Assembly (NCBI GenBank): GCA_001192655.1
Contig: BBVC01000038.1
Location: forward strand, 1 to 7,295
DNA length: 7,295 nucleotides
DNA from: Caedimonas varicaedens
GTDB taxonomy: Bacteria; Pseudomonadota; Alphaproteobacteria; Caedimonadales; Caedimonadaceae
Direction: 5' to 3'
Of the stretch, positions 2 through 939 are shown piece after piece. Both the position numbers and the translations under genes were made by a program. Every line of letters starts with the position of its first letter. Within the stretch, counting starts at the first letter, position 1. The notes under the pieces were generated by a model. That model ran no database searches. It had not been told where the DNA came from and was given only the letters and a program-made list of their open reading frames with translations.

Positions 2-652
2 TCCGGCGCTAACAGAGGTACAACTTATCACGGAAACGAGGAAAACGCGGAACAATTCAAGCGTACTCATGGACTTGAAGTTTTCAGGTGGGATGTGGGA
101 GATTACGAAGCCTGTCAACAGGGAATACAACGAGTACGAGAACGTTTGGGCGAGATTGATATTCTGGTTAATAATGCCGGGATTACCAAAGATGTCATGC
201 TTCATAAAGCTACTCCTGAAGATTGGAGAGCAGTTATCCATACAAACCTTATATCCTGTTTTAATATGTCTCGCCTGGTTATTGAAGGGATGCGCGAGAG
301 AAACTTTGGCCGTATTATTAATATTTCCTCAATCAATGCGCAAAGGGGGCAAGCAGGCCAAACAAATTATTGTGCAGCCAAAGCGGGTATCCTCGGCTTT
401 ACAAAAGCGTTAGCACTTGAGTGTGGGCGTAAAGGAATTACTGTGAATGCGATCTGTCCCGGCTATATTAATACTGAGATGGTTCAATCCATCTCGCCAG
501 ATATCCTCAACAAAATTATTCAACAAATTCCGGTAGGTCGCTTGGGAGAAACCCATGAAATTGCGCGGGGCGTTACTTTCCTGGCATCAGATGACGCAGG
601 TTTTATTACCGGATCTACCCTCAGCCTCAACGGCGGACATGTTATGATTTAA
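2..652 (+). CDS. phaB: Acetoacetyl-CoA reductase-like short-chain dehydrogenase/reductase (PhaB/FabG family); the 5' end lies outside the window
   Basis: Frame 2 is open from nt 2 to the TAA at 650-652, so the listed ORF 95..652 merely starts at an internal GTG. The translation shows SDR hallmarks: [12 protein letters not shown] followed by the catalytic Y-x3-K (NYCAAK), and [10 protein letters not shown]. The tail [28 protein letters not shown] closely resembles alphaproteobacterial PhaB as I recall it. The N-terminal Rossmann TGxxxGIG motif is missing because the window truncates the gene. Assigning PhaB rather than generic FabG is an inference. Confidence 0.8.
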
Positions 653-939
653 GCTTGAAAAATTTGCCCCATTTCTGGAAGGTTATATGTTCGTGAACGG
701 TGGGGGAATGGGTATGGATCCATGCCTTCAGATACAGGCGTGGCACAACTGGCGATCGGTTTAGGAGAGTTTTCCATTTCGTCCAGACACATGCGGCAGT
801 TTTCTTCAATGACCAAACAAGGATGGTAGAAAAAAACAGGTTCAATCAAGCTGTTGTGCTGCCTGCAAAATAGTGGTTCCTTGAGGGAATCAATCTTTGA
901 AACGGAATAACTCCTTCGATCGTAGGTGACGCGGTTCAC
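642..939 (-). pseudogene. nuoG: Degraded N-terminal relic of NADH-quinone oxidoreductase subunit G (nuoG); frameshifted and truncated after ~95 codons
   Basis: Minus-strand ORF 649..939 starts at GTG 939-937. It reads ..[42 protein letters not shown].., matching the conserved NuoG/75-kDa subunit N-terminus (..IP.FCYH..L...GNCRMCLVE.E.SPKP.ASCA.PV..GM.IHT..). The Cys of FCYH is Phe here (codon ttc at 831-829). After GM (ATG at 723-721) the expected IHT motif continues in a different frame (atc cat acc at 719-711, ORF 642..845), which implies a frameshift near nt 720. Both frames stop at 642-651, against ~690 aa for an intact NuoG. The relic sits in the canonical position and orientation downstream of nuoF. 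Confidence 0.75.

What the first reader, a model, noticed from the sequence alone, without database searches (positions are those of the whole stretch)
642..939. Decayed N-terminal stump of nuoG: lost Fe-S ligand, frameshift and truncation
The minus-strand translation ..[40 protein letters not shown].. keeps the exact C-x10-C-x2-C-x13-C spacing of the N1b 2Fe-2S site of NuoG and the 75-kDa subunit. The first ligand is Phe rather than Cys (ttc at 831-829, one base away from tgc). Immediately after GM the conserved IHT continues only in another frame (719-711), which fits a 1- or 2-nt indel near 720. Everything ends by 642-651.

An intact NuoG is roughly 690 aa and also carries the N4, N5 and N7 clusters, so this copy cannot be functional. 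Either a second intact nuoG, with nuoH-N, exists elsewhere in the genome, or complex I is being lost. A split operon is known in Rickettsiales. The strong residual conservation of the [14 protein letters not shown] block argues that the break is evolutionarily recent.
Basis: partly seen in the sequence, partly recalled or inferred. Interest (0 to 1): 0.7.

Follow-up and report, generated by a model that had tools for sequence, protein, structure and literature searches.

The report
Dead nuoG fragment left by rearrangement
This is a roughly 200-290-base dead leftover of the respiratory complex I gene nuoG in the Paramecium endosymbiont Caedimonas varicaedens, marking where nuoG-H-I sat before a working copy moved elsewhere; it is an ordinary genomic scar.

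Summary
Window 700-893 (minus strand) is an unmistakable fragment of nuoG. After frame correction it is 72% identical (52/72, E 2e-32) to residues 10-81 of the intact NuoG of the same species and passes Pfam Fer2_4.

The window is a whole 7,295-bp contig of the Caedimonas varicaedens draft genome. The fragment has at least three frameshifting deletions (1 nt at 889/888, 2 nt at 847/846, 2 nt at 720/719) and a 3-nt deletion. In this strain Cys34 is Phe. Nothing beyond about codon 93 remains, because a convergent acetoacetyl-CoA reductase gene ends at 652.

A full-length nuoG (GAO97785.1, 691 aa), followed by nuoH and nuoI, sits on another contig. nuoA-F in the window are under strong purifying selection (dN/dS 0-0.19). 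Complex I is therefore not being lost.

More distant relatives keep nuoA-I contiguous. The fragment is closest to its own genome's nuoG (p about 0.13, against at least 0.26 for others). It therefore marks the old position of nuoGHI.

The same indels occur in independent metagenome assemblies, so they are not 454 sequencing errors. One lineage has a stop inside the 96-aa ORF, and substitutions look neutral. This is an ordinary pseudogene relic of low interest.

The parts
700..893 (-). Core nuoG relic, equivalent to about codons 10-77 of NuoG. This is the N-terminal 2Fe-2S (N1b) Fer2_4 domain.
   Evidence: It shows 84.7% nt identity over 209 nt to the 5' end of intact nuoG of a near-identical Caedimonas genome (L088). 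The frame-corrected peptide is 72% identical to P0133 residues 10-81, E 2e-32. It scores 36.2 bits on Pfam Fer2_4 and matches TIGR01973 at model positions 7-77.
888..889 (-). Site of a 1-nt deletion (GAC GTC became GAT-TC). This is the first frameshift.
   Evidence: Seen in alignments A2. It is shared by the window, L087 and L082.
840..847 (-). A 2-nt deletion between 847 and 846 (frameshift), and a 3-nt deletion between 841 and 840 that removes the Ile30 codon.
   Evidence: Seen in alignments A1 and A2. Both are shared by all relic-bearing relatives.
829..831 (-). TTC (Phe) at the position of the first N1b ligand, Cys34.
   Evidence: Position 830 is T in the window only. It is G (TGC, Cys) in L082-L087 and in intact nuoG. 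It lies at the end of a T7 run in a 454-sequenced genome, so it is either a strain-specific substitution or, less likely, a base-call error.
719..720 (-). Site of a 2-nt deletion (ATG GTT ATC became ATG G--ATC).
   Evidence: Seen in alignments A1 and A2, and shared by all relatives. The IHTH motif continues in another frame.
653..699 (-). Tail of the intergenic gap. It may be further-decayed nuoG codons of about 78-93 (a weak [12 protein letters not shown] versus ARRGVLEFLLINH resemblance).
   Evidence: Local DNA alignment to intact nuoG scores no better than shuffles. The MAFFT placement is only suggestive.
894..976 (-). Spacer between the lipase stop codon and the relic core. The first roughly 8 nuoG codons are not recognisable here.
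   Evidence: There is no significant similarity to the 5' end or upstream region of intact nuoG. The sequence is nearly identical among strains, and its first 64 nt are also present in L081, where the rest of the relic is replaced.
1..652 (+). The 3' portion of a convergent acetoacetyl-CoA reductase (SDR) gene, cut by the contig end. Its stop codon abuts the relic and sets the relic's 3' limit.
   Evidence: Pfam adh_short_C2, E 7e-54. The full-length orthologue L082:1816-2541 scores 341 bits on TIGR01829, cut-off 302. The gene is intact at 241-254 aa in relatives.
977..2383 (-). Lineage-specific class-3 lipase gene inserted between nuoF and the relic. It has low G+C and is hypervariable.
   Evidence: Pfam Lipase_3, E 1e-15. 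G+C is 33-38% against 44-50% for the nuo genes. Only 5 homologues were found, all in Caedimonas-type contigs. In more than 70 other alphaproteobacteria nuoG follows nuoF directly.
2504..7184 (-). Intact nuoA-nuoF: nuoF 2504-3769, nuoE 3769-4368, nuoD 4365-5546, nuoC 5543-6160, nuoB 6163-6738, nuoA 6708-7184.
   Evidence: ORFs and Pfam hits. dN/dS is 0-0.19 against L087 and L081. NuoF equals GAO98273.1 of Caedimonas varicaedens.

Best explanation
The element is a non-functional relic (pseudogene fragment) of the original nuoG of Caedimonas varicaedens.

The ancestor had a contiguous nuoABCDEFGHI cluster. In the C. varicaedens lineage a copy of nuoG-nuoH-nuoI became established at another locus; the duplication or translocation step is inferred. 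The copy behind nuoF then became redundant and lost everything beyond about codon 93. The deletion end point lies at the stop codon of a convergent acetoacetyl-CoA reductase gene.

A foreign, low-GC lipase gene now separates nuoF from the relic, and the relic's first roughly 8 codons are no longer recognisable. The remaining roughly 200-290 bp have since drifted neutrally, accumulating indels shared by all known strains and, in this strain, the Cys34-to-Phe change.

The relic does nothing. Complex I is served by the relocated nuoGHI together with the intact nuoA-F in this window.
For: Identity of the fragment:
- The frame-corrected peptide is 72% identical to residues 10-81 of the species' own NuoG, E 2e-32.
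- It passes Pfam Fer2_4, and TIGR01973 NuoG is its best NCBIfam family.

Source genome:
- The lipase and NuoF are 100% matches to Caedimonas varicaedens proteins on a 7,295-bp contig.

A functional copy exists elsewhere:
- GAO97785.1 (NuoG, 691 aa, 746 bits against a cut-off of 470), GAO97786.1 (NuoH) and GAO97787.1 (NuoI) lie on a 13.7-kb contig.
- In the near-identical genome L088, nuoGHI have no nuoF upstream.

Ancestral order:
- nuoA-I are contiguous in Caedimonas sp. L089/L090 and in Caedibacter sp. 37-49.
- nuoG follows nuoF in more than 70 alphaproteobacteria.

Paralogy within the lineage:
- The p-distance from relic to own intact nuoG is 0.124-0.134. It is 0.26-0.27 to L089 and above 0.30 to others.

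Neutral decay:
- Polarised changes on the relic branch fall 4/6/3 on codon positions 1/2/3. On the intact branch they fall 0/0/3.
- Between strains, non-synonymous to synonymous counts in the 96-aa ORF frame are 4:2 and 8:3, including a TAG stop in the L082 lineage.
- The ORF is not in the 15-billion-protein collection.

The lesions are not sequencing artefacts:
- Identical indels and an identical 324-nt gap length occur in ENA, Logan, NCBI and JGI assemblies.

Complex I is retained:
- For nuoA-F, pooled pS is 4.7% and pN is 0.44%.

No sign of a secondary role:
- No Rfam hit, no terminator-like site, and a fold z-score of -0.59.
Against: - The duplication or translocation step itself was not observed. 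No nuoF fragment and no significant IS remnant were found next to the relocated nuoGHI; there is only an HTH-like 37-aa fragment at E 0.09.
- The relic's divergence between strains (1.9-3.4%) is somewhat below the Nei-Gojobori pS of the nuo genes (4.7%). It is above that of the adjacent SDR gene (dS 0.007 for L087). Counts are too small to prove strict neutrality.
- The gap length of 324 nt is invariant among strains, whereas the nuoF-lipase spacer has 33-55 gap columns.
- nuoJ-N of this species were not checked.
Confidence: 0.93

Rival explanations
1. The relic has been co-opted as non-coding RNA. It lies between two convergent genes with no recognisable terminator. Read-through from the SDR gene would make an RNA antisense to about 200 nt of the 5' coding region of the functional nuoGHI mRNA (about 87% identical). 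Read-through from the lipase gene would make a sense decoy. Either could modulate complex I expression in trans.
For: No terminator-like site was found in 500-2600 on either strand. There is about 87% identity over roughly 200 nt to functional nuoG. The gap has an invariant 324-nt length, with no indels among strains, while the neighbouring nuoF-lipase spacer varies. Relic divergence is lower than nuo pS.
Against: There is no structural signal (z -0.59) and no Rfam match. Substitutions are spread evenly over the relic. The L081 scaffold appears to lack all but 64 nt of the gap. Relic divergence exceeds the synonymous divergence of the adjacent SDR gene for the same pair. No expression data are available.
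Confidence: 0.04
2. The 96-aa ORF 649-939 is a stand-alone small ferredoxin-like gene derived from nuoG.
For: There is an open frame of 96 codons with a GTG start. Three of the four N1b cysteines lie in one frame in the window, and all four do in relatives. The raw ORF hits Pfam Fer2_4 at 22.2 bits.
Against: The score is just below the Pfam cut-off of 22.8, and only model positions 44-76 are covered. The first third of the domain lies in another frame. The L082-L086 lineage has an in-frame TAG at the position of window 861. Non-synonymous to synonymous counts between strains are 4:2 and 8:3. The exact protein is absent from a collection of 15 billion predicted proteins.
Confidence: 0.01
3. The frameshifts are 454 homopolymer errors in an otherwise intact nuoG, or a contig mis-join.
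For: The genome was sequenced by Roche 454 and assembled with Newbler (PMC4645214). The window is a short contig.
Against: The same indels and junctions on both sides (lipase-relic and relic-SDR) occur in at least six independent assemblies from four sources. The deletions are of 2-3 nt and not in long homopolymers. DNA beyond 652 is a complete, conserved SDR gene.
Confidence: 0.01
4. Complex I is being lost in this endosymbiont, and nuoG was the first gene to go.
For: The organism is an obligate endosymbiont with a genome rich in transposases. The operon is disrupted here.
Against: Full-length NuoG, NuoH and NuoI are annotated in the same species. nuoA-F have dN/dS of 0-0.19 over the period in which the relic accumulated neutral changes. 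The apparent nuoF breaks in relative L081 are runs of N in a scaffold.
Confidence: 0.01

Closest known systems
Gene relics and split or scattered nuo clusters in obligate intracellular alphaproteobacteria, such as Rickettsia (from general knowledge of Rickettsia genome papers; not retrieved here)
   Same: In both cases an ancestral contiguous nuo operon is broken into several loci in a reduced, rearranged endosymbiont genome. Short, frameshifted remnants of genes are left in intergenic DNA and decay neutrally.
   Different: Here the remnant is a leftover of a gene whose functional copy survives in the same genome. It therefore marks a duplicative relocation rather than a gene loss. The organism belongs to the Holosporales (Caedimonas), not the Rickettsiales.
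NuoG / Nqo3 / 75-kDa subunit of respiratory complex I (TIGR01973; Pfam Fer2_4 + NADH-G_4Fe-4S_3 + Molybdopterin)
   Same: The fragment derives from the N-terminal 2Fe-2S (N1b) domain and keeps the C-x10-C-x2-C-x13-C spacing. It is 72% identical to the species' own NuoG over residues 10-81.
   Different: Only about 10% of the gene is present. There are three frameshifts and no recognisable start. The N4, N5 and N7 cluster-binding regions and the molybdopterin-like domain are absent. It scores 70 bits against a family cut-off of 470.
Stand-alone Fer2_4 or HoxU-like small 2Fe-2S proteins
   Same: These share a similar N-terminal fold family, and weak NCBIfam hits to HoxU and hydrogenase N-termini were seen.
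   Different: There is no intact ORF for the domain and no conservation of the ORF among strains. The best match is clearly the genome's own nuoG.

Membership tests
NuoG (TIGR01973 / complex I 75-kDa subunit), as a functional member | The whole-protein score reaches the curated family cut-off of 470 bits | tested here: not met
   The frame-corrected relic scores 70.4 bits and covers model positions 7-77 of 606. The intact paralogue P0133 scores 746.6 bits.
NuoG (TIGR01973 / complex I 75-kDa subunit), as a functional member | An uninterrupted reading frame of about 690 codons with a start codon | tested here: not met
   Deletions of 1, 2 and 2 nt shift the frame three times. No start is recognisable. 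The sequence ends at about codon 93 against a convergent gene.
NuoG (TIGR01973 / complex I 75-kDa subunit), as a functional member | Four cysteine ligands of the N1b 2Fe-2S cluster (C34, C45, C48, C62) | tested here: not met
   The window has Phe at position 34 (TTC, 831-829). Relatives keep TGC there but share the frameshifts.
NuoG (TIGR01973 / complex I 75-kDa subunit), as a functional member | The 4Fe-4S domains (N4, N5, N7) and the molybdopterin-like domain | tested here: not met
   tblastn with a full NuoG finds nothing beyond residue 70-93 anywhere in the window.
NuoG-derived sequence (homology only) | Significant similarity to the NuoG N-terminal Fer2_4 domain, with the best match to NuoG rather than to other Fer2_4 proteins | tested here: met
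   Pfam Fer2_4 scores 36.2 bits against a cut-off of 22.8. The top NCBIfam hit is TIGR01973, E 1.4e-19. The match to the species' own NuoG has E 2e-32.
Pseudogene relic of a relocated gene | A functional paralogue is present elsewhere in the same genome | tested here: met
   GAO97785.1, GAO97786.1 and GAO97787.1 (NuoG, NuoH, NuoI) of Caedimonas varicaedens lie on a different contig. This rests on database records; the contig DNA itself was not retrievable.
Pseudogene relic of a relocated gene | The relic sits at the ancestral position of the gene | tested here: met
   It lies downstream of nuoF in the same orientation. nuoF-nuoG adjacency is seen in L001, L089, L090 and about 70 other genomes.
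Pseudogene relic of a relocated gene | A substitution pattern without coding constraint | tested here: met
   Relic-branch changes fall 4/6/3 over codon positions, against 0/0/3 on the intact branch. Between strains non-synonymous changes outnumber synonymous ones, and one is a nonsense change. Counts are small.
Pseudogene relic of a relocated gene | No transcript or product with a function | not testable with these tools
   No expression data are available. Only negative in-silico results exist: no Rfam hit, no stable fold and no terminator-like site.

The most novel reading that the evidence does not exclude
The relic is kept because transcripts running through it from the convergent acetoacetyl-CoA reductase gene are antisense to the 5' coding region of the relocated nuoGHI mRNA. 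That would make it a pseudogene-derived trans-acting regulator linking carbon storage metabolism to complex I expression in an endosymbiont.
Probability: 0.03. Interest if true: 0.5.

Novelty: new member of a known kind. Interest (0 to 1): 0.15.

Why it matters
The practical value is for annotation and for the history of this genome.

- It explains why the nuo cluster of Caedimonas varicaedens appears to stop at nuoF on this contig.
- It shows that complex I is not degenerate in this kappa-particle endosymbiont.
- It gives a dated marker for one rearrangement in a transposase-rich genome. The relocation of nuoGHI happened after the split from other Caedimonas and before the diversification of C. 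varicaedens-type strains.
- It warns annotators not to call the 96-aa ORF a ferredoxin.

Beyond that it is an ordinary pseudogene relic.

Tried and rejected
- **Exact look-ups of the window's proteins.** Lipase, NuoF and NuoD were not found in the contig index. The source was identified instead through the protein search.
- **Genome-collection scan with NuoF.** It still supplied about 70 comparison loci.
- **Contig look-up for GAO97785.1.** It failed, so a 98%-identical relative (L088) was used for the DNA of the intact locus.
- **Reciprocal nuoF remnant or shared repeat upstream of the relocated nuoG.** None was found. ORF fragments there gave only HTH_10 at E 0.09, so IS-mediated relocation remains an inference.
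- **Apparent nuoF pseudogenes in L081.** These turned out to be scaffold gaps of Ns, so they were rejected as evidence of complex I decay.
- **Flanks 653-699 and 894-976.** Tested for nuoG homology, they scored no better than shuffles.
- **Non-coding function.** Rfam, a terminator and promoter scan, and RNA folding of the gap gave no signal.
- **Apparent high conservation of the relic.** Its 96.6-98.1% identity first looked striking beside the lipase (about 80% at protein level). It dissolved once the flanking genes were measured: the strains are simply close, at 98-99%, and the lipase is the outlier.

Full report
**What the window is.** The 7,295-base window carries the following features on the minus strand:
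- nuoA (6708-7184), nuoB (6163-6738), nuoC (5543-6160), nuoD (4365-5546), nuoE (3769-4368) and nuoF (2504-3769);
- a 468-aa class-3 lipase ORF (977-2383; Pfam Lipase_3, E 1e-15);
- a 324-nt gap (653-976).

On the plus strand lies the 3' part of an SDR gene that ends at 652. The lipase has 33-38% G+C against 44-50% for the nuo genes. A protein search gave a 100% match of the lipase to 'lipase [Caedimonas varicaedens]' on a contig of exactly 7,295 bp. NuoF equals GAO98273.1 of the same species. The window is therefore a whole contig of the 454-sequenced draft genome BBVC01 of this kappa-particle endosymbiont of Paramecium biaurelia. That genome has 142 contigs and 42.1% G+C, and 8% of the UniRef90 best-hit records were transposases (PMC4645214).

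**Checking the observation.** The three minus-strand frames of 600-980 contain the following, in order and in different frames:
- [14 protein letters not shown];
- [42 protein letters not shown];
- [11 protein letters not shown].

tblastn with the NuoG of the closest genome found in the species collection (Caedibacter sp. 37-49, L001) hits only these pieces. They correspond to residues 14-26 and 31-70, with 65% identity and a combined E of 2e-12. Nothing else of the 684-aa protein is found anywhere in the window. The raw 96-aa ORF scores 22.2 bits on Pfam Fer2_4, just under the 22.8 cut-off. The frame-corrected peptide does much better:
- 36.2 bits on Fer2_4;
- E 1.4e-19 on TIGR01973 NuoG, model positions 7-77;
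- 72% identity (52/72, E 2e-32) to residues 10-81 of the intact NuoG of C. varicaedens.

**Lesions.**
- a 1-nt deletion at 889/888;
- a 2-nt deletion at 847/846;
- a 3-nt deletion at 841/840;
- a 2-nt deletion at 720/719.

Outside about 700-893, similarity to nuoG is not better than for shuffled sequence. The first roughly 8 codons and codons of about 78-93 are thus either gone or decayed beyond recognition. The gap ends at the stop codon of the convergent gene. That gene is an acetoacetyl-CoA reductase: the full-length orthologue scores 341 bits on TIGR01829, cut-off 302.

**Is there a working nuoG?** Yes.
- The 90% cluster of a NuoG hit contains GAO97785.1, 'NADH-quinone oxidoreductase chain 3 [Caedimonas varicaedens]', 691 aa, on a 13,731-bp contig. 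It passes TIGR01973 at 746.6 bits against 470.
- NuoH (GAO97786.1) and NuoI (GAO97787.1) of the species have the next accession numbers.
- In a metagenome contig whose NuoG is about 98% identical and whose NuoH is identical (L088), nuoG-nuoH-nuoI lie among unrelated genes. A 670-nt spacer sits upstream, with no nuoF remnant.

The nuoA-F genes of the window are under strong purifying selection against two close relatives. dN/dS is 0-0.19 against L087 (nuoA-F); nuoE against L081 reaches 0.34 on 6 non-synonymous changes. Pooled pS is 4.7% and pooled pN is 0.44%. Complex I is therefore maintained, and the 'complex I is being lost' alternative is rejected. nuoJ-N were not examined.

**Origin.** nuoG follows nuoF directly in about 70 alphaproteobacterial loci. 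nuoA-I are contiguous in Caedibacter sp. 37-49 and in a more distant Caedimonas sp. (L089/L090). The relic thus sits at the ancestral nuoG position.

Over the 201 alignable bases, the relic's p-distance is:
- 0.124-0.134 to the C. varicaedens-type intact nuoG;
- 0.26-0.27 to the Caedimonas sp. gene;
- above 0.30 to all others.

The two copies therefore separated inside the C. varicaedens lineage. I polarised the differences with outgroups. Thirteen changes fall on the relic branch, spread 4/6/3 over codon positions 1/2/3. Three fall on the intact-gene branch, all at third positions. This is the pattern expected if the relic lost coding constraint at or soon after the split while the other copy stayed functional.

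A breakpoint inside a single-copy essential gene would be lethal to its function. A transient duplication, or an ectopic copy of nuoGHI followed by deletion of the original, is therefore the most economical route. This step is inferred, not shown. No significant IS remnant was found at the new locus; the only hint is an HTH-like fragment at E 0.09. The genome is transposase-rich.

**Relatives with the same relic.** Four lipase homologues (76-81% identical) led to contigs from ENA, Logan, NCBI and JGI. L087 has nuoA-F, lipase, gap and SDR. L082-L086 have lipase, gap and SDR. In all of them the gap is exactly 324 nt, carries the same indels, and is 96.6-98.1% identical to the window. This excludes 454 homopolymer errors and contig mis-joins.

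The conservation looked striking beside the lipase at first. The flanking genes, however, are 97.5-99.8% identical, so the strains are simply close and the lipase is the outlier.

Between strains the 96-aa ORF frame shows the following:
- 4 non-synonymous against 2 synonymous changes for L087;
- 8 non-synonymous against 3 synonymous changes for L082;
- one of the L082 changes is CAG to TAG at the position of window 861.

T830 (Cys34 to Phe) and A803 (Gly43 to Glu) are private to the window. Neither ORF of the gap is in a collection of 15 billion predicted proteins. The stand-alone-ferredoxin alternative is therefore rejected.

In scaffold L081 the gap is replaced by unrelated sequence after its first 64 nt. 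If this is not an assembly chimera, the relic is dispensable. The apparent breaks of nuoF in L081 are runs of N.

**A secondary function?** In-silico tests gave nothing:
- no Rfam match at E up to 1;
- no terminator-like site, and a promoter-like site only upstream of the lipase;
- a fold energy indistinguishable from shuffles, z -0.59.

The relic's between-strain divergence (1.9-3.4%) lies between the Nei-Gojobori pS of the nuo genes (4.7%) and the near-zero divergence of the adjacent SDR gene in the same pair. With 6-11 substitutions this is compatible with neutrality in a recombining, mosaic region. An antisense or sense RNA role through read-through transcription cannot be excluded without expression data, but nothing points to it.

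**Comparison and verdict.** The element is homologous to NuoG but fails every test for functional membership: family score, intact frame, four ligands and downstream domains. It fits the well-known class of gene relics in rearranged endosymbiont genomes. Here it is specifically a leftover of a gene whose functional copy was relocated. From general knowledge, split nuo clusters and decaying gene fragments are familiar from Rickettsia.

The event is older than the diversification of the known strains. The lost Cys ligand is a late, strain-private change. Interest is low and the novelty is a new instance of a known kind.

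Noticed in passing
window 977-2383 (-), with L081, L082 and L087: The class-3 lipase gene is an orphan. Only 5 homologues were found in 5.8 billion clusters, all on Caedimonas-type contigs. It has low G+C and a signal-peptide-like N-terminus (MLRLFSFFILLTFLNFPVLGS). 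It is far more divergent between strains (dS 0.28-0.35, dN 0.11-0.13, dN/dS about 0.4) than its flanks (dS about 0.05). It looks like a hypervariable or recombining secreted effector allele inserted into the nuo cluster.
   Followed up: partly
window 2384-2503, with L081 and L087: The nuoF-lipase spacer carries strain-specific indels. One is a 32-nt insertion in L081 containing the palindrome GTACATG..CATGTAC; L087 has 55 gap columns. A sigma-70-like site (TTGAAA-16-TATCAT, 2446-2419, minus strand) lies just upstream of the lipase start, which suggests the lipase has its own promoter.
   Followed up: no
window 16-652 (+) against L087 9247-10011: The acetoacetyl-CoA reductase gene differs at 1 of 637 bases between the window and L087. 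The nuo genes of the same pair differ by 1-2% and the relic by 1.9%. The locus looks like a mosaic of recombination tracts.
   Followed up: no
L081 6332-6430: In this ENA scaffold the sequence after the lipase follows the window for 64 nt. It then switches to unrelated DNA and an 869-aa gene on the other strand. The relic and SDR gene are absent. This is either a real alternative arrangement or an assembly chimera.
   Followed up: partly
L082 2859-3977 and L087 1018-2052: Relatives carry eukaryote-interaction-type genes around this locus. A PI-PLC X-domain protein and a second SDR lie beyond the reductase gene. An F-box protein gene lies upstream of nuoA.
   Followed up: no
window 5543-6301 (-): The longest nuoC ORF (252 aa) extends about 47 codons upstream into nuoB. 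Gene calls in relatives give 205 aa (618 nt), so the real start is probably near 6160.
   Followed up: no
L088 9333-10000: The 670-nt spacer upstream of the relocated nuoG contains a 37-aa ORF fragment (9526-9639, minus strand..IAKLFKVSDMAVLKWIRK..). It resembles a transposase-type HTH but is not significant, with Pfam HTH_10 at E 0.09.
   Followed up: partly
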